Positions 24,425 to 54,448 of a stretch of 64,000 bases of DNA are shown here, piece after piece (the stretch's first letter is position 1; each line of letters opens with the position of its first letter). The translations under genes and the position numbers were made by a program. Origin of the DNA: Escherichia virus TH40; the sequence record MT446411.1; one strand, 5' to 3'. The notes beneath the pieces are model-generated. The model searched no databases, was not told the DNA's origin, and was given only the letters and a program-made list of their open reading frames with translations.

Positions 24425-24682
24425 TTATTCCTTAATTCCTAATACTTGTTTGAAGGTCTCAGTATAATCGGGGTATTGACCGGTTTGTTCTTTATGTTTG
24501 ACCATAATACCATAAACTTCTGAACGCATATTATTATATGAACGAGTTAAAGCAGATTTCAATACTGAATAACTATCCGGAAGTTTACCGTGTTCTTTAT
24601 AATAGGCCAGAGTTAATTCACGGACCACTCTTTCAGCGGTCTCAACATATTCTTTACGCTTTGCCATTTTCTTCTCGCTCAA
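24425..24682 (-). CDS. Hypothetical protein (85 aa)
   Basis: ORF track. Confidence 0.4.
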
Positions 24683-34725: not shown

Positions 34726-35056
34726 CTTCCAATTTTACCTTCATTAATTTAGCGTATTCGACTGCAGCAGCCCGGCCATCAATTTGACATGTGATTTCAT
34801 TTACACATTGACTCTTATTGTTCCATTCAGTTTTAATAAAAGCCCAAAATTGTTCGGACTGCTCGACGCTGGGTTCTTTGAATTGCGAATAGATTTGCAT
34901 CGCACTATCTGCATATTGTGTAAATTTACCATCTGTAGCAGAGGACAGATTTGGGCCTAAACAGCCCATTAGTAATAGACTTAGAGAAAGTCCTCGAATA
35001 AGGTCCATAAAGGACTCCTTATTGTTGGTCATGATTACGCTTTGCAGCCTTAACAT
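34712..35056 (-). CDS. Putative lipoprotein (lipobox LLMGC); late-promoter-like TATAAATA upstream
   Basis: ORF track; LSLSLLLMGC signal; minus-strand TATAAATA at 35080-35087. Confidence 0.45.
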   Translation of the reverse strand: MLRLQSVIMTNNKESFMDLIRGLSLSLLLMGCLGPNLSSATDGKFTQYADSAMQIYSQFKEPSVEQSEQFWAFIKTEWNNKSQCVNEITCQIDGRAAAVEYAKLMKVKLEDEIR

Positions 35057-35082
35057 AGCGGAATACTAGTTAGTAACTGTAT

Positions 35083-35358
35083 TTATAATCTTTTAAACTT
35101 GAAACAATATATTGCAAATAAATCAGAAAAATGTCTATCAACCCATATTCTTTGCACTGGACTAGTAACAGTCAGCATATAATGTGCTTTTTGTAAATTT
35201 ATTCCATTTTTATTCGGGCATTCTTTATTAACAGAATGGTACGTGCTTGCTACTATTTCAATTTCCCTTTCATATCTCTCGCTATCTGTTTGTGTGGGGA
35301 TAAATGCAATTCCAGCAATAACAAAAATAGAGATATACGTCCAAATCTTATATATCAT
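35083..35358 (-). CDS. Hypothetical protein with N-terminal signal anchor (91 aa)
   Basis: ORF track. Confidence 0.4.
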   Translation of the reverse strand: MIYKIWTYISIFVIAGIAFIPTQTDSERYEREIEIVASTYHSVNKECPNKNGINLQKAHYMLTVTSPVQRIWVDRHFSDLFAIYCFKFKRL

Positions 35359-35365
35359 AAGGACC

Positions 35366-35938
35366 TCAGCTTGTCAATTCGAGCCAATGTTTCCTGCATA
35401 AAGATACGTACGATTCATTCCCACCAACTAACACTTGCTCGCCGTCCTTTACAGCAGCACCGTCGATTACTCGAGCGGTCATGGTTGCTTTCCGGCCGCA
35501 ATGGCAGACGCCCTTTAATTCAACCAGTTTATCCGAAATAGCCAGAAGTCTGGCTGAACCGGGAAATAACTGACCCCGAAAATCTGTTCTTAGCCCGTAA
35601 CACATAACGGGGATATTGTAATTATCAACCACTCGTGCTAACTGGTCAATTTGCTCTGGTAGCAAAAATTGAGCTTCATCGACCAGGACACAATGGATAT
35701 CCTTTTGAGACTCGGCCCATTTATAGAATTCAAACAGGTTCATGTCGGCCGTTACCAGGTTTGCTTCCTGGCTAATACCAATACGTGATTTAATTTCAGA
35801 TTCCGAGTCCCGATTATCAATAACAGGTTTTAGCAAAAGCACACTCATTCCACGCTCTTTATAGGAATAAGCTGCAGTCAGCAATGAAGCTGTTTTGCCT
35901 GCATTCATTGCTGCGTAATGATAAATTAAACTCGCCAT
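35366..35938 (-). CDS. tk: Thymidine kinase
   Basis: 190 aa; P-loop MNAGKT, zinc-site CHCGRKA..C, overall TK1 family pattern. Confidence 0.9.
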   Translation of the reverse strand: MASLIYHYAAMNAGKTASLLTAAYSYKERGMSVLLLKPVIDNRDSESEIKSRIGISQEANLVTADMNLFEFYKWAESQKDIHCVLVDEAQFLLPEQIDQLARVVDNYNIPVMCYGLRTDFRGQLFPGSARLLAISDKLVELKGVCHCGRKATMTARVIDGAAVKDGEQVLVGGNESYVSLCRKHWLELTS

Positions 35939-35947
35939 ATCACCTTC

Positions 35948-36133
35948 TTATTCTGTAATACTTTCCAGATAATTTTCTAAATCGTCTGAAGCCTTATTAA
36001 GGGCTTCTAGCGCTTTATAATAGTCTTCACGGGAGTAATATTCTGTATGAAGTTCTTCGTCGTATTCGCTTTTAGCATCAACAACAGTTTCAATCATATC
36101 CAGAATTTTATTTTTCTGTTCTTTAGTAATCAT
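35948..36133 (-). CDS. Hypothetical acidic protein (61 aa)
   Basis: ORF track. Confidence 0.35.
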   Translation of the reverse strand: MITKEQKNKILDMIETVVDAKSEYDEELHTEYYSREDYYKALEALNKASDDLENYLESITE

Positions 36134-36141
36134 AATATACC

Positions 36142-36327
36142 TTAAAGAGTATTCACATAAGCAATTAATTCGTTTTCTTTCTCATCAAACCGATTAGCAA
36201 ATTCTTCCTGATGTTCGGCATCTATCGGGCCGTATCCATCATAAAAAGCGTTCGCTTCCGTATGCTCGTCCAAAAGCTCATGGATAAGCTCAAACAATCT
36301 ACTTTTCTGACTAATACTTAAACTCAT
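36142..36327 (-). CDS. Hypothetical acidic protein (61 aa)
   Basis: ORF track. Confidence 0.35.
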   Translation of the reverse strand: MSLSISQKSRLFELIHELLDEHTEANAFYDGYGPIDAEHQEEFANRFDEKENELIAYVNTL

Positions 36328-36530
36328 TTCGGTTCACCTTGTTTTACAAAGTCTGGATACGGTTGAAACCCGGAATAGAAACCAGCGCCTGCATGATTCA
36401 CACACCCTTTATTAGAACAATAGCACCAATAATCAAAGTCACATATCATTTCATCGTTGCATAAAGCAAAAACAACTGGCCATTTACACTTTTCACAGTG
36501 AGCATTTTTAAGAATACTAGTTTGACTCAT
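36324..36530 (-). CDS. Cys-rich small protein (68 aa)
   Basis: ORF track; many Cys/His (CEKC..C..C..C.C..C..H). Confidence 0.4.
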   Translation of the reverse strand: MSQTSILKNAHCEKCKWPVVFALCNDEMICDFDYWCYCSNKGCVNHAGAGFYSGFQPYPDFVKQGEPK

Positions 36531-36981
36531 AATCCACCACTATCAAATCAATATCAGGAGTAAACATATCAATTAACCGGGAAACCTTATCCCAATCACC
36601 ACCTGCAATACCACAACCAATCCTGGGAATATAAATCACAGGCTTGAACAAAAGTGATTCTGCTTGTCGATTTAATTCTATCATGCAATTTACTAAAGCA
36701 CCATAATCCAGATTTGGACCCGGTTCATACTGGGTATAAAGGTTATAACACATACCAAATCCAGTTGGTTTATGTTTAAAAACGATAGACATATCACCGA
36801 GTTTTTCCCGGGAACCGTACTCAGTTGATGTCTTATCCATTTCTAAAATTTTTGGGTAAGCCTTTGCCAGTTGACCAGCAACGCCTGAACCCATTGTATG
36901 GAAGCAGTTACAGCCATGAGCTATGATGTTTCCTTCGAGAAAGAGGGCGACAATATCGCCCTTAATATAGTTAACAATCAT
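36517..36981 (-). CDS. Macro-domain protein (ADP-ribose binding/hydrolase fold)
   Basis: 154 aa; GDIV..NIIAHGCNCFHTMGSGVAGQL and later GCGIAGGDW match macro-domain glycine-rich loops. Confidence 0.65.
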   Translation of the reverse strand: MIVNYIKGDIVALFLEGNIIAHGCNCFHTMGSGVAGQLAKAYPKILEMDKTSTEYGSREKLGDMSIVFKHKPTGFGMCYNLYTQYEPGPNLDYGALVNCMIELNRQAESLLFKPVIYIPRIGCGIAGGDWDKVSRLIDMFTPDIDLIVVDYESN

Positions 36982-37337
36982 TTAGAGTTCAATCCTCTAT
37001 TATAGGAATCGACTAACCTGTCAACCATACTGGTGCAGGCCGCTTTATATTTGGCACTCGACAGAATACAATCCATTTCAAATAGTTTCTTTTCATATTT
37101 GTTGGATAAAGTACTCTTTTTCATAAGAGTGTGTTCAACATCATTTTGGCCGTCTTTATATGCCGCGGTGAGCTTGGCACTAAACCGGATTACACAATCC
37201 ACATTGCTTGATGCGCAATAATCTTTGGCCGTCCTCGTTGCATATTCTATGATGCTATTATTATCATCGCTCTGTACTGAAGCTATTCCTCCCGTGCTGA
37301 ATACTAACCCTATGGCTAAAGTTATGACTCTTACCAT
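36978..37337 (-). CDS. Hypothetical secreted protein (119 aa)
   Basis: ORF track; N-terminal signal peptide. Confidence 0.4.
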   Translation of the reverse strand: MVRVITLAIGLVFSTGGIASVQSDDNNSIIEYATRTAKDYCASSNVDCVIRFSAKLTAAYKDGQNDVEHTLMKKSTLSNKYEKKLFEMDCILSSAKYKAACTSMVDRLVDSYNRGLNSK

Positions 37338-37880
37338 TTAATCCACCATTTTTAATAGGCCTCGTGATTTTAAGTAGTTAGCTTTTTCTAGGACCTGTGA
37401 AGCATACGTATTTCCAGCTTTCACATTCCACCCTGCGTTATATGATGATAGTGTTTTTCTTATGTCCCCCTTGTGAATGTTCAACCAGTATGAAAGCTCA
37501 ATATAAGCCCAGCGCGCGCTGTTTTCTCTCTTGCTTATCATCTTGATTATTTCTTTATCTGTCATTGTCCACCCAACCTGTTTCACGCGTTCGCGCACGG
37601 TTGGAAGATAATTTTGGAATATACCATATGCATGATGCTTATCTTTATTTAATCCTGTATTAACACCAGCAGATGATTCCTGCCAGGTTAAACCAGCCAT
37701 GATATATCCCAAACCATTATGTTGGTGCGGATTTTCTTTGTACTTACCATTTTTCTGGAACTGTTCTCCAAATGCATACGCATATTGAAGATTTTCCATC
37801 TGTTCATTACTGAAAGTAGGCTCTACGCTATGGGCAGACATACTAACTGTCAATAGTAAGGTGGCGATTACTTTTTTCAT
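37338..37880 (-). CDS. Secreted lytic-transglycosylase-like (SLT domain) protein
   Basis: 180 aa; signal peptide; catalytic-region motif WQESSAG ... AYGIFQ. Confidence 0.55.
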   Translation of the reverse strand: MKKVIATLLLTVSMSAHSVEPTFSNEQMENLQYAYAFGEQFQKNGKYKENPHQHNGLGYIMAGLTWQESSAGVNTGLNKDKHHAYGIFQNYLPTVRERVKQVGWTMTDKEIIKMISKRENSARWAYIELSYWLNIHKGDIRKTLSSYNAGWNVKAGNTYASQVLEKANYLKSRGLLKMVD

Positions 37881-37890
37881 GAATTCCTCA

Positions 37891-38349
37891 TTAGATATAA
37901 ATCACTTTTGTGCTAATTTTTCCTTCCAGACGATTAGAGTTAACAAACGCCATACGACAACACATGGTCGGAGACTTCCCAGGAAGAGCCGGGTTAACTG
38001 TCATTCCTAGCCATAAGTTCTTGTCTGTGATTTCCAGACGAAGTGGACGGTAGTTCACATTCGGGTCAATTTGTGCTTCAACTTCTGGAAGCGGTTCCAT
38101 TTTTAAGAATTCAACAATTTCTTTTACATGTGGTGTGATTTTTCCAAACAAGTCAAAAACATATTGTTCGTCAATTTCACGTTGGATTGCACGGTCCAAC
38201 AGGTGCGGACTGTACTTAATGAAGAATGCTTCAAGGCCTGCTTCTTTACAAGCCTTGTTGATAGCATTATTAATTTTGAGGAACTCCGTTTCAAAAATAC
38301 GACGAAGTTTATTGCGGCGAATGTAAACACTTGAATCGATAGTAGTCAT
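37891..38349 (-). CDS. regB: RegB-like sequence-specific endoribonuclease (start at internal Met MTTIDSS)
   Basis: Resembles T4 RegB as I recall it (..VYIRRNKLRR.., ..HLLDRAIQREIDE..); AAGGAG SD before internal Met; ORF track gives 37891..38406. Confidence 0.5.
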   Translation of the reverse strand: MTTIDSSVYIRRNKLRRIFETEFLKINNAINKACKEAGLEAFFIKYSPHLLDRAIQREIDEQYVFDLFGKITPHVKEIVEFLKMEPLPEVEAQIDPNVNYRPLRLEITDKNLWLGMTVNPALPGKSPTMCCRMAFVNSNRLEGKISTKVIYI

Positions 38350-38403
38350 GATTATCTCCTTTTGTTTGATGGGATAATCATAACTCATTTCAACCTGCTT
38401 GTA
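38350..38403 (-). promoter_or_regulatory. Type-A early promoter-leader cassette upstream of regB
   Basis: Forward ctccttttgtttgatgggataatcataactc...ttgtacac read directly. Confidence 0.45.
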
Positions 38404-38405
38404 CA

Positions 38406-38753
38406 CTATTCTTTAAAACGAATTAGCTTATTTAATGACTGTGAGACTTCAGCACGAACAGCGTGTAAATTCTTAAGCTGTTCAAGGCGTTGCTCGTAGT
38501 AAGCAATTTCATCTTCTTCAAGACAGTCGTTTGAATCTTCTTTAAGATAGTTCCCGTAGTCCTGAAAGGCCTTACGAATAACTTCTTGGAAATCGTCTAG
38601 ACTTTGAATTTTTGGTTGTTTCGATGTGAATCCAAACGGATTGGAATCATTTATGCGGCGATGAGAAGCGGTTGATAACTCATAACCAAAACCAGAATTA
38701 ATCTGCGCCATTAGTATTTTTCCTCGGGTCGAAATACTGCACGACATGCCCAC
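38406..38753 (-). CDS. Hypothetical protein (115 aa)
   Basis: ORF track. Confidence 0.4.
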
Positions 38754-39031
38754 ATGCTGGCTTCTTTTAGATGTTGCTTAGCATACTTAAGAGCCTGCAC
38801 TGCATCCATATCTTCTTTGGTTTGTTGCTCTGTTTCATTTTCTTTCAAGATATATGCTTCTTCAATCAGAGCATCAAACATCAATCCAAGACGGACTTCT
38901 GCATCTTTAATAGCGTTCACTTTACCGATTTTATCATCGGTATGTGGCTTGTAACCTTTGATATCTTCAATCATTTCACTTCCTCGCCAGTTGCGATATC
39001 GTATTCTACCAAACGAAGTCCGTCGGTCCAC
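38711..39031 (-). CDS. Hypothetical protein (106 aa)
   Basis: ORF track. Confidence 0.4.
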
Positions 39032-39204
39032 CCTTGCACGGAGATATAAGTGCTAGGATAAACCAGTTCTTTACCGTTCCACTGACCACCGTCCCAAACT
39101 TCCAGAAAGTCTTGTTCGCCCGGGCCATTAAACCATTCAACGAATCTTTTCAAGGCTGCATCAGAGCCTTCAATCGTCAGTTTAGACATATTTTTTCCAG
39201 TCAC
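38971..39204 (-). CDS. Hypothetical protein (77 aa)
   Basis: ORF track. Confidence 0.4.
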   Translation of the reverse strand: MTGKNMSKLTIEGSDAALKRFVEWFNGPGEQDFLEVWDGGQWNGKELVYPSTYISVQGWTDGLRLVEYDIATGEEVK

Positions 39205-39478
39205 TAATTAATCGCACATCCTGGTCATACGTCAGGAGGCTACGAGTTATAATACCCTTACATGGTCCAGAAATAAATTCCAGAGTAAAGTAAGGAACCA
39301 ACTTCATCAAGCGAATACTCGGAGCAGTGCAACGAAATCTGGACCCAATAAAAGGTCCAGACAAAAACACATACTCAAAGAAATTAGCTTTATTAAAGAT
39401 TTCAAAATTCTTTACGAAATCCTCAGACCTAACCTTTGGAATAAAATAGATTTGGTCAAAAAGCTCTTCATGGGTCAT
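39182..39478 (-). CDS. Hypothetical protein (98 aa)
   Basis: ORF track. Confidence 0.4.
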   Translation of the reverse strand: MTHEELFDQIYFIPKVRSEDFVKNFEIFNKANFFEYVFLSGPFIGSRFRCTAPSIRLMKLVPYFTLEFISGPCKGIITRSLLTYDQDVRLISDWKKYV

Positions 39479-40023
39479 TATTGCATTCCAATCACAAAAA
39501 ATTGAGGACGAACTGTTTCACCCGTTTTAAAACAATGAGCATGACAGCAGTGTTGTACAGTTTTCATATGGATATCGTAAATCTTGTCCATATCAGGAGC
39601 TTTAATAGGTTCATCAATTATATACAATACGCGTGAAAGTGCAAGGCCACGGAATTTAGAACCTTCATTACCGATAAAGCTACGTAATGAATCATGGAAA
39701 AGCCGGTAACGAATATCTTCCGCGCTAAAACGAATAAAATCATTTTTGATAGAATCGGATGAAATTCTTGCATAAGCCGAGGTATTAGACAGGACAATTA
39801 CTGTACCTCCGTCATAAATCCAGTTAGCGGCAAAATTAGTTACTGCAGTAGATTTACCTGATTGTCGCCCGCCATCCATACGGAGTGTGCAGTATTCTTT
39901 GAGCAAGACTTCCATTGGAGGAATATAACAATCGGTCTTACAAAGTTCTTCTATTCGAGCATCAGAATGGTGGGTAAAAGCATTCATCAGGGATAGATAA
40001 GGTCCAGTTAAAAAAGTTCTCAT
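39478..40023 (-). CDS. Small P-loop NTPase
   Basis: 181 aa; Walker A GGRQSGKST; Walker B-like VLYIIDEP. Confidence 0.5.
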   Translation of the reverse strand: MRTFLTGPYLSLMNAFTHHSDARIEELCKTDCYIPPMEVLLKEYCTLRMDGGRQSGKSTAVTNFAANWIYDGGTVIVLSNTSAYARISSDSIKNDFIRFSAEDIRYRLFHDSLRSFIGNEGSKFRGLALSRVLYIIDEPIKAPDMDKIYDIHMKTVQHCCHAHCFKTGETVRPQFFVIGMQ

Positions 40024-40187
40024 ATTGTTTCTCTTAAGGTTTTGGGGCCATTCCTTGGCACATTAATTCGTCCATGTATCCGAATGTAAACCCCTTACCG
40101 CACTCGGGCTCGACCTTATTACAGGTAGGGAAAGGTCCATCACTCAGAGGACACGACGTTCATGAGGAGAGGGTCGGTTTGCCTTTA

Positions 40188-40487
40188 TTAAAAAGAACCA
40201 GAGCCTTTAATTGTGTTCTGGCGACCTTTATTTTCGAATTCAGAATGGTCGATTTCGTATGCTTGTGCTACGCCAAAGGCCTTTTTAACTTTAGCTAAAG
40301 AACCTTTAGTTGTAACAATATTAAAAGTATTGCCTTTGGTAAAATCAACCAAATCCACTTGCACCCCTTGTTTACCAAGGCTTGCTACAATAGCATCAAC
40401 ATATTGTTGGTCTAAATTGCCTTGAACCCCAATTTGAAATGCTTTAGGAACTTTGGCTTCTGTGATAAATTCTTGATATGTTTTCAT
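40188..40487 (-). CDS. Internal-protein-like (capsid-targeting N-terminus MKTYQEFITE)
   Basis: 99 aa; N-terminal 10 residues match the T4 IP capsid targeting sequence MKTYQEFIAE. Confidence 0.65.
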   Translation of the reverse strand: MKTYQEFITEAKVPKAFQIGVQGNLDQQYVDAIVASLGKQGVQVDLVDFTKGNTFNIVTTKGSLAKVKKAFGVAQAYEIDHSEFENKGRQNTIKGSGSF

Positions 40488-40500
40488 ATTGTTTCTTTAA

Positions 40501-41850: not shown

Positions 41851-42312
41851 TTATCCGAAAATTTGAGTCAAAACCTTATACATCGATTTACCCATTACGT
41901 ATTGCCATTGACTTGGTTTAATCAGAGCAAATGCATCAAACTCTGGGACCGAACTACCATCCGGGAAGGTATGATATGCGGAGCATTTACTATGTCTGAA
42001 TTGCTCATGCTCGACCGGAACCGTGTACAAAAACAGGTGAAGGTTTTTATTATCTGAATAACGAAACTCGCCTAGGTCTTTTAAGAATGCCGGGTCATAC
42101 TTGGTAAAACCTGTTTCTTCTTCACATTCACGCATAGCTGCTTCAATCAGGGATTCACCGGCTTCAACATGACCCTTAGGGATATCCCATTTATGCGCAG
42201 GCATACCCGGTTTGCGAGAACCAGTCACGCGCCCCATGAATAACTCTTTATCTTCAGTCATGAAAATAATACCAGCAGATAATTCTTTCGCCGCGTTTTT
42301 CTTACTCATCAT
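41851..42312 (-). CDS. nudE: Nudix hydrolase (NudE-like), start taken at internal Met
   Basis: Nudix box GHVEAGESLIEAAMRECEEETGF; ORF track gives 41851..42438. Confidence 0.75.
   Translation of the reverse strand: MMSKKNAAKELSAGIIFMTEDKELFMGRVTGSRKPGMPAHKWDIPKGHVEAGESLIEAAMRECEEETGFTKYDPAFLKDLGEFRYSDNKNLHLFLYTVPVEHEQFRHSKCSAYHTFPDGSSVPEFDAFALIKPSQWQYVMGKSMYKVLTQIFG

Positions 42313-53757: not shown

Positions 53758-54448
<691 letters not shown>

What the first reader, a model, noticed from the sequence alone, without database searches (positions are those of the whole stretch)
36517..36981. Macro-domain protein in the early region
The 154-aa product has the glycine-rich loops typical of macro domains, which bind or hydrolyse ADP-ribose adducts. 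T4-like phages use ADP-ribosylation to reprogram the host, and some host defences ADP-ribosylate DNA or protein, so a phage macro domain could act either in self-regulation or as a counter-defence.
Basis: partly seen in the sequence, partly recalled or inferred. Interest (0 to 1): 0.5.

Follow-up and report, generated by a model that had tools for sequence, protein, structure and literature searches.

The report
Phage macrodomain that counters DarTG2
This gene is the ortholog of phage T4 tk.4 (AdfM), a small macrodomain enzyme that most likely strips ADP-ribose off phage DNA to defeat the bacterial DarTG2 defence, so it is real but already described.

Summary
Window 36517..36981 (minus strand) is a 154-aa ORF that passes the Pfam Macro threshold. 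Its model is confident (pLDDT 95), and the best PDB matches are TARG1, BT1257, Poa1p, DarG and SCO6735, all ALC1/TARG1-like macrodomains.

The window is about 98% identical to Escherichia phage VR20/TH15 (Gaprivervirus). The gene lies in the T4 order vs.1-vs-tk.4-tk.3-tk.2-tk.1-tk, and the protein is 59% identical to T4 Tk.4.

A 2025 preprint (HIDEN-SEQ) showed that T4 tk.4 is the single gene needed to resist DarTG2 and named it AdfM.

My own addition concerns the active site. The catalytic lysine of DarG (K80) and TARG1 (K84) is replaced here by an invariant glutamine (Q84), as in SCO6735, where Q85 is essential for removing ADP-ribose from thymidine. The protein is not a DarG by the tests run here. 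It is also only distantly related to the Lys-type PhiKZ protein that carries the same name, AdfM.

Biochemistry of this protein is untested. Verdict: ordinary, already known, low-to-moderate interest.

The parts
36517..36981 (-). Coding sequence of the 154-aa stand-alone macrodomain protein, ortholog of T4 Tk.4 / AdfM
   Evidence: ORF. Pfam Macro 35.1 bits against a cut-off of 22. PHROG 335 at E 5e-70. 59% identity to T4 Tk.4 over 152 aa. 99.4% identity to VR20 gp109 and 100% to TH15.
36871..36918 (-). Loop 1, the phosphate-binding loop, residues 22-37 HGCNCFHTMGSGVAGQ. H22, G23, N25 and C26 are invariant. H22 and N25 align with SCO6735 H24 and N27, and N25 also aligns with PhiKZ AdfM N23.
   Evidence: Conservation. 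Alignment with reference macrodomains. Mutating the conserved asparagine (N23A construct) reduces PhiKZ AdfM activity (PMC13309987).
36730..36744 (-). Motif N80-L-Y-T-Q84. Q84 occupies the position of the catalytic Lys of TARG1 (K84) and DarG (K80), and of the essential Gln85 of SCO6735.
   Evidence: AAC CTT TAT ACC CAG read. Q84 is invariant in 121 of 121 homologs. Alignments. SCO6735 Q85A is inactive (PMC9411070).
36592..36627 (-). Loop 2, the second glycine-rich loop, residues 119-130 PRIGCGIAGGDW. A126 sits where TARG1 has the catalytic Asp125.
   Evidence: Sequence read. Conservation. Alignment.
36978..36981 (-). ATGA overlap: the start codon of the macro gene overlaps the stop codon of vs, which suggests translational coupling within one transcript
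   Evidence: ORF coordinates and sequence. An AGAGGA Shine-Dalgarno-like element lies at 36993-36998 on the minus strand, 12 nt upstream of the ATG.
36978..37337 (-). Context: upstream neighbour vs (valyl-tRNA synthetase modifier)
   Evidence: PHROG 1256 at E 5e-33. Same gene order as T4 and VR20.
36324..36530 (-). Context: downstream neighbour, a tk.3-like phage zinc-binding protein whose start overlaps the last 14 nt of the macro gene
   Evidence: Pfam PF23895 at E 1.3e-28. ORF coordinates.

Best explanation
The ORF encodes the Gaprivervirus ortholog of T4 Tk.4 (AdfM). It is a stand-alone macrodomain of the ALC1/TARG1-like class, expressed with the early/middle genes vs, tk.3 and tk. When the host carries DarTG2, the released DarT2 toxin ADP-ribosylates thymidines (TNTC motifs) in single-stranded phage DNA and blocks replication. 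I infer that this enzyme binds the ADP-ribose in the cleft formed by its two glycine-rich loops, cleaves the N-glycosidic bond to thymidine, and releases free ADP-ribose and intact DNA. In effect it acts as a phage-borne antitoxin that has no toxin-binding domain. Its chemistry probably follows SCO6735 rather than DarG: an invariant Gln84, with H22 and N25, positions the distal ribose and a water molecule in place of the catalytic lysine. What is shown here: the fold, the class, the orthology and the active-site residues. What is shown elsewhere for the T4 ortholog: the genetic requirement against DarTG2. What is inferred: the hydrolytic activity of this protein and the Gln-based mechanism.
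For: Fold and class. Pfam Macro is above threshold. The model has pLDDT 95. The top Foldseek PDB hits are TARG1, BT1257, Poa1p, DarG (T. aquaticus and M. tuberculosis) and SCO6735, at TM 0.70-0.80. A family profile hits the same set at E 4e-19 to 1e-10.

Orthology. The protein is 59% identical to T4 Tk.4 with no gaps. Gene order is the same as in T4.

Function of the ortholog. T4 tk.4 was the only significant hit in the DarTG2 screen, and the knock-out was sensitised.

Activity in the class. DarG, TARG1 and SCO6735 all remove ADP-ribose from thymidine in DNA. PhiKZ AdfM does so in vitro.

Active site. Q84 aligns with SCO6735 Q85, whose Q85A mutant is dead, and with DarG K80 and TARG1 K84. Q84, H22, G23 and N25 are invariant in 121 homologs.
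Against: No biochemistry exists for this protein, nor for T4 Tk.4 in the papers I read. The T4 result is genetic and comes from a preprint. Identity to T4 Tk.4 is only 59%. The protein lacks the lysines K34 and K89, and the longer mobile loop, that SCO6735 uses for DNA binding. It is acidic (pI 5.1), although the active PhiKZ AdfM is equally acidic. SCO6735 V25 corresponds to G23 here, so the proposed backbone-mediated step may differ. A catalytically dead SCO6735 also inhibits DarT by binding, so protection need not be purely enzymatic.
Confidence: 0.75

Rival explanations
1. It is a small-molecule enzyme of NAD metabolism: an ADP-ribose-1''-phosphate phosphatase like yeast Poa1p, or an O-acetyl-ADP-ribose deacetylase like YmdB. 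This is what the database labels 'phosphatase' and 'O-acetyl-ADP-ribose deacetylase' imply.
For: Poa1p is the best single-sequence PDB hit (6lfu, E 8.7e-10). The HGCNC motif resembles Poa1p's HSCNC. H22 and T29 align with Poa1p H23 and S30, the residues mutated in PDB entries 6lfs and 6lft. PHROG 335 is labelled 'phosphatase', and JGI names homologs as deacetylases.
Against: Position 29 is not conserved: it is T or S in 75 of 121 homologs and is replaced by L, V, Q, A or M in at least 37 others. The NCBIfam deacetylase models score 17.7 and 12.8 bits against cut-offs of 291 and 252. The only phenotype known for the T4 ortholog is sensitivity to DarTG2. No phage pathway in the window is known to produce ADP-ribose-1''-phosphate. 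The database labels are transferred names, not tested functions.
Confidence: 0.08
2. Self-regulation: the enzyme erases ADP-ribose placed on host or phage proteins by the phage's own transferases (Alt, ModA, ModB), tuning host take-over.
For: It is an early-region gene in a phage lineage that uses ADP-ribosylation. SCO6735 and TARG1 also de-modify proteins.
Against: tk.4 was non-essential on K-12 and was depleted only when DarTG2 was present. From general knowledge, not tested here, Alt/ModA/ModB are arginine-specific and macrodomains are not known to cleave arginine-ADP-ribose. No alt or mod gene lies next to this gene in the window.
Confidence: 0.04
3. It is a broader counter-defence enzyme. 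Besides DarT2 adducts it removes ADP-ribose placed on other targets (protein Glu/Asp, RNA or DNA phosphate ends) by other toxins or defence systems, or it protects partly by binding DarT2 rather than by catalysis.
For: SCO6735, which shares the Gln active site, also acts on protein substrates and inhibits DarT even when catalytically dead. The family occurs in 2782 phage records from many genera and hosts. It also occurs as a stand-alone gene, without DarT, in many bacteria.
Against: CmdTAC, an mRNA ADP-ribosyltransferase, still defends strongly against T4, which carries tk.4, so that adduct at least is not reversed. SCO6735 was inactive on RhsP2-type 2'-OH RNA ADP-ribosylation, and the same paper is internally inconsistent about its activity on phosphate-end adducts. 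The T4 screens I read reported tk.4 only for DarTG2.
Confidence: 0.13

Closest known systems
T4 Tk.4 = AdfM (anti-DarT factor Macrodomain), bioRxiv 10.1101/2025.11.20.689424
   Same: Same length (154 against 155 aa). 59% identity with no gaps. Same position between vs and tk.3. The same invariant residues H22, G23, N25, Q84 and the two glycine loops.
   Different: A different genus (Gaprivervirus, not Tequatrovirus) and 41% of residues differ. In loop 2, T4 has GAGIGKGNW where this protein has GCGIAGGDW. Protection against DarTG2 has been shown for T4 only.
Streptomyces coelicolor SCO6735 (PDB 5e3b) and Bacteroides BT1257 (PDB 2fg1/2afc), stand-alone Gln-type ALC1-like macrodomains
   Same: These give the best pairwise scores among the references (52.8 and 54.7 bits), and BT1257 is the best profile hit (4e-19). 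Gln sits at the catalytic-lysine position, the H-x-C-N motif is present, loop 2 is GCG[IL]AGG, and neither has a toxin partner. SCO6735 cleaves thymidine-linked ADP-ribose on DNA and rescues cells from DarT.
   Different: Identity is only about 25%. The 'mobile loop' after the Gln is 6-8 residues shorter here and lacks K89/K93. K34 is Ser or Ala here. V25 is Gly here. The protein is acidic rather than basic (pI 5.1 against 9.7). It is phage-encoded.
DarG antitoxin macrodomain of DarTG2 (T. aquaticus 5m31/5m3e, M. tuberculosis 5m3i)
   Same: Same fold and class (TM 0.70-0.74). It is the best NCBIfam and PADLOC match. The presumed substrate is the same, ADP-ribosyl-thymidine in ssDNA.
   Different: It scores 30 bits against a cut-off of 250. 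There is no C-terminal DarT-binding domain. Catalytic Lys80 is replaced by Gln. There is no adjacent DarT. Pairwise scores are lower than to BT1257/SCO6735.
PhiKZ gp104 'AdfM' (Cell Rep 2026, PMC13309987)
   Same: A phage-encoded stand-alone macrodomain that counters DarTG2. It has the same name, and the conserved Asn (N23 there, N25 here) is shared.
   Different: It is a Lys-type, DarG-like protein with an FPTK motif. It scores 97 and 82 bits with the DarG proteins but only 21-24 bits with the Tk.4 proteins. It is imported into the phage nucleus. The two 'AdfM' proteins therefore belong to different subgroups of the class.
Human TARG1/OARD1 (PDB 4j5r/4j5s)
   Same: It is the top Foldseek hit (E 4.7e-10, TM 0.73-0.80), is a short single-domain protein with a short mobile loop, and cleaves thymidine-ADP-ribose.
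   Different: Both residues of the TARG1 catalytic dyad are missing here: K84 is Q84 and D125 is A126.

Membership tests
Macro domain (Pfam PF01661) | Score at or above the Pfam gathering threshold across the full domain | tested here: met
   35.1 bits against 22, residues 22-136 on profile positions 2-117 of 118.
Macro domain (Pfam PF01661) | Mixed alpha/beta macro fold with two glycine-rich ligand loops | tested here: met
   The model has pLDDT 95 and pTM 0.90. 122 PDB chains match at E <= 1e-3; the 50 best listed are natural macrodomains plus the designed OSH55 hydrolases. The loops MGSGVAG and GCGIAGG are present.
Macro domain (Pfam PF01661) | Binds ADP-ribose | not testable with these tools
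   Needs a binding assay or a co-crystal structure.
T4 Tk.4 / AdfM orthologous group | Full-length sequence similarity to T4 Tk.4 | tested here: met
   59% identity and 75% positives over 152 of 154 aa, E 8e-71. PHROG 335 at E 5e-70.
T4 Tk.4 / AdfM orthologous group | Conserved position between vs and tk.3 in the tk-regB block | tested here: met
   Window order regB, vs.1, vs, macro gene, tk.3-like, two DUF7438 genes, tk, compared with T4 and VR20.
T4 Tk.4 / AdfM orthologous group | Required for growth on a DarTG2-carrying host | not testable with these tools
   Shown for T4 only. Needs a deletion mutant of this phage.
DarG antitoxin (NCBIfam NF048014, PADLOC DarG) | Score at or above the equivalog cut-off | tested here: not met
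   30.1 bits against a cut-off of 250. PADLOC DarG scores 29.1 bits.
DarG antitoxin (NCBIfam NF048014, PADLOC DarG) | C-terminal DarT-binding domain | tested here: not met
   The protein is 154 aa and matches only positions 2-138 of the 338-position model.
DarG antitoxin (NCBIfam NF048014, PADLOC DarG) | Catalytic lysine (K80 in T. aquaticus and M. tuberculosis DarG) | tested here: not met
   Gln84 occupies that column and is invariant in the family.
DarG antitoxin (NCBIfam NF048014, PADLOC DarG) | Encoded next to a DarT toxin | tested here: not met
   tblastn with a DarT2 protein finds nothing better than E 0.19 in the window, and nothing better than E 0.8 in 80 bacterial loci that hold relatives.
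SCO6735/BT1257-type (Gln-type) ALC1-like macrodomain hydrolases | Gln at the position of the TARG1/DarG catalytic lysine (SCO6735 Q85) | tested here: met
   Q84 in the NLYTQ motif aligns with NMIGQ85. It is invariant in 121 of 121 homologs and found in 75 of 80 bacterial loci.
SCO6735/BT1257-type (Gln-type) ALC1-like macrodomain hydrolases | His24 and Asn27 of the H-V-C-N motif | tested here: met
   H22-G23-C24-N25 aligns with H24-V25-C26-N27. H22 and N25 are invariant.
SCO6735/BT1257-type (Gln-type) ALC1-like macrodomain hydrolases | Val25 (or Ile), stated to be SCO6735-specific and to position the catalytic water through its backbone | tested here: inconclusive
   The residue here is an invariant Gly23. 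The proposed role is through the backbone, so the side-chain difference does not settle it.
SCO6735/BT1257-type (Gln-type) ALC1-like macrodomain hydrolases | Extended mobile loop, 5 aa longer than in DarG/TARG1, carrying K89 and K93/94 | tested here: not met
   The loop after Q84 has the DarG/TARG1 length and has no lysine.
Poa1p-type ADP-ribose-1''-phosphate phosphatase | Equivalents of Poa1p H23 and S30 | tested here: inconclusive
   H22 is invariant. T29 aligns with S30, but the position is variable across the family: T or S in 75 of 121.
Poa1p-type ADP-ribose-1''-phosphate phosphatase | Phosphatase activity on Appr-1''-p | not testable with these tools
   Needs an enzyme assay.

The most novel reading that the evidence does not exclude
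The T-even 'AdfM' is not a captured DarG antitoxin. It would be an independent recruitment of a different, Gln-type branch of the ALC1/TARG1-like macrodomains, the branch that in bacteria exists as stand-alone chromosomal genes such as SCO6735. The nucleus-forming phages recruited a Lys-type DarG-like domain instead. On this reading phages evolved two convergent macrodomain answers to DarT2, with different catalytic chemistry. The Gln-type enzyme might also have a wider substrate range, for example protein Glu/Asp-ADP-ribose.
Probability: 0.45. Interest if true: 0.4.

Novelty: already known. Interest (0 to 1): 0.25.

Why it matters
DarTG2 is a widespread toxin-antitoxin defence that stops phages by ADP-ribosylating their DNA. 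A phage that carries this enzyme should be insensitive to it, which matters when predicting host range or choosing therapeutic T4-like phages.

The gene's role has already been reported for T4, so the finding mainly confirms that the ortholog in this VR20-like phage keeps every conserved active-site residue.

The one point that goes beyond the papers I read is the active site. The T-even enzyme has a glutamine-type site like SCO6735, not the lysine-type site of DarG or of the PhiKZ protein with the same name. If confirmed, this would mean two separate origins and two chemistries for the same counter-defence. It would also make current database labels such as 'phosphatase' misleading.

Tried and rejected
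- **Promoter and terminator scan, 35000-40500.** It found fewer promoter-like sites than in shuffled sequence (12 against 16.4), so it says nothing about how the gene is transcribed. A MotA-box pattern search found no site just upstream of the gene, only one inside it.
- **Origin from a DarTG operon.** I tested whether bacterial relatives sit in DarTG operons. tblastn with a DarT2 protein taken from PMC13309987 found nothing in 80 loci. Pfam scans of 106 neighbouring ORFs showed housekeeping genes instead. Only the 25 most frequent families were listed, so a rare DarT neighbour cannot be excluded.
- **Net charge and pI as a proxy for DNA binding.** This did not discriminate, because the experimentally active PhiKZ AdfM is as acidic as this protein.
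- **HMMER pairwise alignment to BT1257.** It mis-registers the N-x-x-x-Q motif. I relied on MAFFT alignments that include the whole family.
- **Poa1p structural paper.** I could not find it in the library, so the roles of Poa1p H23 and S30 rest only on the titles of the PDB entries.

Full report
**1. The observation**

Window 36517..36981 holds an ATG-initiated ORF of 154 aa on the minus strand.
- HGCNCFHTMGSGVAGQ, residues 22-37, at 36871-36918.
- PRIGCGIAGGDW, residues 119-130, at 36592-36627.

The ORF is a real gene, not a chance reading frame:
- It scores 35.1 bits on Pfam Macro (PF01661) against a gathering score of 22, over nearly the whole profile.
- It matches PHROG 335 at E 5e-70.
- tblastn finds relatives in 2782 phage records, and a protein search finds 788 relatives at E <= 1e-3.

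The start codon overlaps the stop codon of the upstream gene (ATGA at 36978-36981). The downstream gene starts 14 nt before this ORF ends. This tight packing is typical of a co-transcribed phage block.

**2. Where it sits**

The neighbours, all on the minus strand, are thymidine kinase, two DUF7438 genes, a phage zinc-binding protein, the valyl-tRNA synthetase modifier vs, an SLT-like vs.1 and the endoribonuclease RegB. This is the T4 order vs.1-vs-tk.4-tk.3-tk.2-tk.1-tk.

The region is about 98% identical to Escherichia phages TH15 and vB_EcoM_VR20, genus Gaprivervirus. The protein is 100% identical to the TH15 product and 99.4% identical to VR20 gp109, annotated 'phosphatase, similar to T4 Tk.4'. 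It is 59% identical to T4 Tk.4 over its full length, without gaps. It is therefore the tk.4 ortholog.

**3. Fold and class**

An AlphaFold2 model built on 53 homologs is confident, with pLDDT 95.0 and pTM 0.90.

Foldseek against the PDB returns, in order, TARG1, BT1257, Poa1p, T. aquaticus and M. tuberculosis DarG, and SCO6735. E-values run from 5e-10 to 1e-7 and TM-scores from 0.70 to 0.80. Viral MacroD-type domains come later.

A profile of the family hits the same set by sequence: BT1257 4e-19, TARG1 6e-17, SCO6735 1e-15, Poa1p 8e-15, DarG 1e-12 and 1e-10. These proteins make up the ALC1-like (TARG1-like) class as defined in PMC9411070.

**4. What is already known**

A 2025 preprint (HIDEN-SEQ, bioRxiv 10.1101/2025.11.20.689424) infected a DarTG2-expressing host with a T4 transposon library. 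It found tk.4 as the single significant hit. A clean tk.4 knock-out became sensitive to DarTG2. The authors noted similarity to the M. tuberculosis DarG macrodomain and named the gene adfM. They proposed, without biochemistry, that it removes ADP-ribose from DNA.

Independently, a Cell Reports paper named PhiKZ gp104 'AdfM'. It showed in vitro that this protein removes the DarT2 adduct from a TNTC oligonucleotide, and that it rescues cells from DarT2.

DarG, TARG1 and SCO6735 all cleave thymidine-linked ADP-ribose.

**5. Active site (my own analysis)**

I aligned the family with reference sequences. T. aquaticus DarG, SCO6735 and BT1257 were read from the printed alignments. PhiKZ gp104 was translated from the paper's methods.

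The column holding the catalytic lysine of TARG1 (K84) and DarG (K80) holds Gln84 in the window protein and in T4 Tk.4. SCO6735 (Q85) and BT1257 also have Gln there. TARG1 Asp125 corresponds to Ala126.

In SCO6735, Q85A abolishes activity on both DNA and protein substrates. That paper states that the Gln distinguishes SCO6735 and ALC1 homologs from TARG1 and DarG homologs.

Q84, H22, G23 and N25 are invariant in all 121 sequences examined. The Gln is also found in 75 of 80 bacterial relatives.

Pairwise scores point the same way. The Tk.4 proteins score best with BT1257 and SCO6735 (40-55 bits), 26-44 bits with DarG, and only 21-24 bits with PhiKZ gp104. PhiKZ gp104 has the FPTK lysine motif and scores 97 and 82 bits with the DarG proteins. 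The two proteins called AdfM therefore belong to different subgroups.

The window protein is not a plain SCO6735 either. Its loop after the Gln is short, as in DarG and TARG1, it lacks K34 and K89, and it has Gly where SCO6735 has Val25.

**6. Membership in DarG**

The defining features were tested and none is met:
- The NCBIfam DarG equivalog scores 30 bits against a cut-off of 250, and only the macro part of the model is covered. PADLOC DarG scores 29 bits.
- There is no C-terminal toxin-binding domain.
- The catalytic lysine is absent.
- No DarT lies nearby.

The protein probably works like a DarG macrodomain, but it is not a DarG.

**7. Bacterial relatives**

A scan of one genome per species returned 369 relatives, and 80 loci were kept (35-42% identity). 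No DarT2 homolog was found within 5 kb by tblastn.

The neighbouring ORFs are housekeeping genes. These include ileS directly upstream in 8 alphaproteobacterial loci, rpoC in Ruegeria and metH in one locus. A few loci have NADAR, NUDIX or TIR neighbours.

This fits a stand-alone 'genome protector' macrodomain like SCO6735 better than a captured antitoxin. The neighbour listing showed only the 25 most frequent families, so it is not exhaustive.

**8. Rival explanations**

*Phosphatase or deacetylase.* These database labels rest on similarity to Poa1p and YmdB. Poa1p is the best single-sequence PDB hit, and H22 and T29 align with Poa1p H23 and S30. Against this, position 29 varies freely across the family, and the deacetylase models score far below their cut-offs.

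*Self-regulation of Alt/ModA/ModB.* tk.4 matters only when DarTG2 is present. From general knowledge, those transferases are arginine-specific.

*Broader counter-defence, or protection by binding DarT2.* This stays open. SCO6735 also acts on proteins and inhibits DarT when catalytically dead. However, CmdTAC still defends strongly against T4, which carries tk.4.

**9. Verdict**

The gene is the ortholog of an already described anti-DarTG2 factor. It is present in near-identical form in deposited genomes, so I rate it already known and of low-to-moderate interest.

The residual novelty is the glutamine-type active site. It implies that T-even phages and nucleus-forming phages use different macrodomain lineages, and probably different chemistry, against the same toxin. 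This claim rests on alignments only and needs the assays listed under next steps.

Noticed in passing
L008, L016, L020, L033, L038, L056, L063 and similar loci (upstream ORF ending about 40-120 nt before the match at about 5001): In 8 alphaproteobacterial genomes the bacterial relative of this macrodomain sits directly downstream of isoleucyl-tRNA synthetase (ileS). In the phage it sits directly downstream of vs, the valyl-tRNA synthetase modifier. This is probably lineage-specific synteny and coincidence, but it is an odd echo.
   Followed up: partly
window 36675-36700 (-): A MotA-box-like middle-promoter pattern (TGCTTTAGTAAATTGCATGATAGAAT) lies inside the macro gene, oriented to drive tk.3, tk.2, tk.1 and tk. 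The pattern is enriched in the window, mostly on the minus strand: 24 matches against 10.8 expected.
   Followed up: no
window 35948-36133 (-) and 36142-36327 (-): Two DUF7438 paralogs of 61 aa each lie here, like T4 tk.1 and tk.2. The closest annotated phage, VR20, has only one, which accounts for the gap in the megablast alignment.
   Followed up: partly
window 53761-54213 (-), 24428-24667 (-), 41854-42309 (-): The window holds orthologs of other T4 genes. 57B/acb1 (anti-CBASS) and nrdC.1 (reported as a Septu inhibitor in the HIDEN-SEQ preprint) have counter-defence roles. The Nudix hydrolase nudE could, from memory, degrade the free ADP-ribose released by the macrodomain.
   Followed up: partly
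PhiKZ gp104 (sequence from PMC13309987) compared with window 36517-36981: Two unrelated papers gave the same name, AdfM, to proteins from different subgroups of the ALC1-like class. PhiKZ gp104 is Lys-type and DarG-like, and T4 Tk.4 is Gln-type. They score only 21-24 bits against each other.
   Followed up: yes
window 36978-37337 (-): The upstream gene vs was the most strongly depleted T4 gene in minimal medium in the HIDEN-SEQ preprint. It is translationally coupled to the macro gene here through an ATGA overlap.
   Followed up: no
PMC11833690: That paper is internally inconsistent on SCO6735. The results section says it is inactive on 5'-phosphate ADP-ribosylated RNA and DNA, while the discussion says it is active on RNA phosphate ends. 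This is relevant if that activity is extrapolated to the phage enzyme.
   Followed up: no
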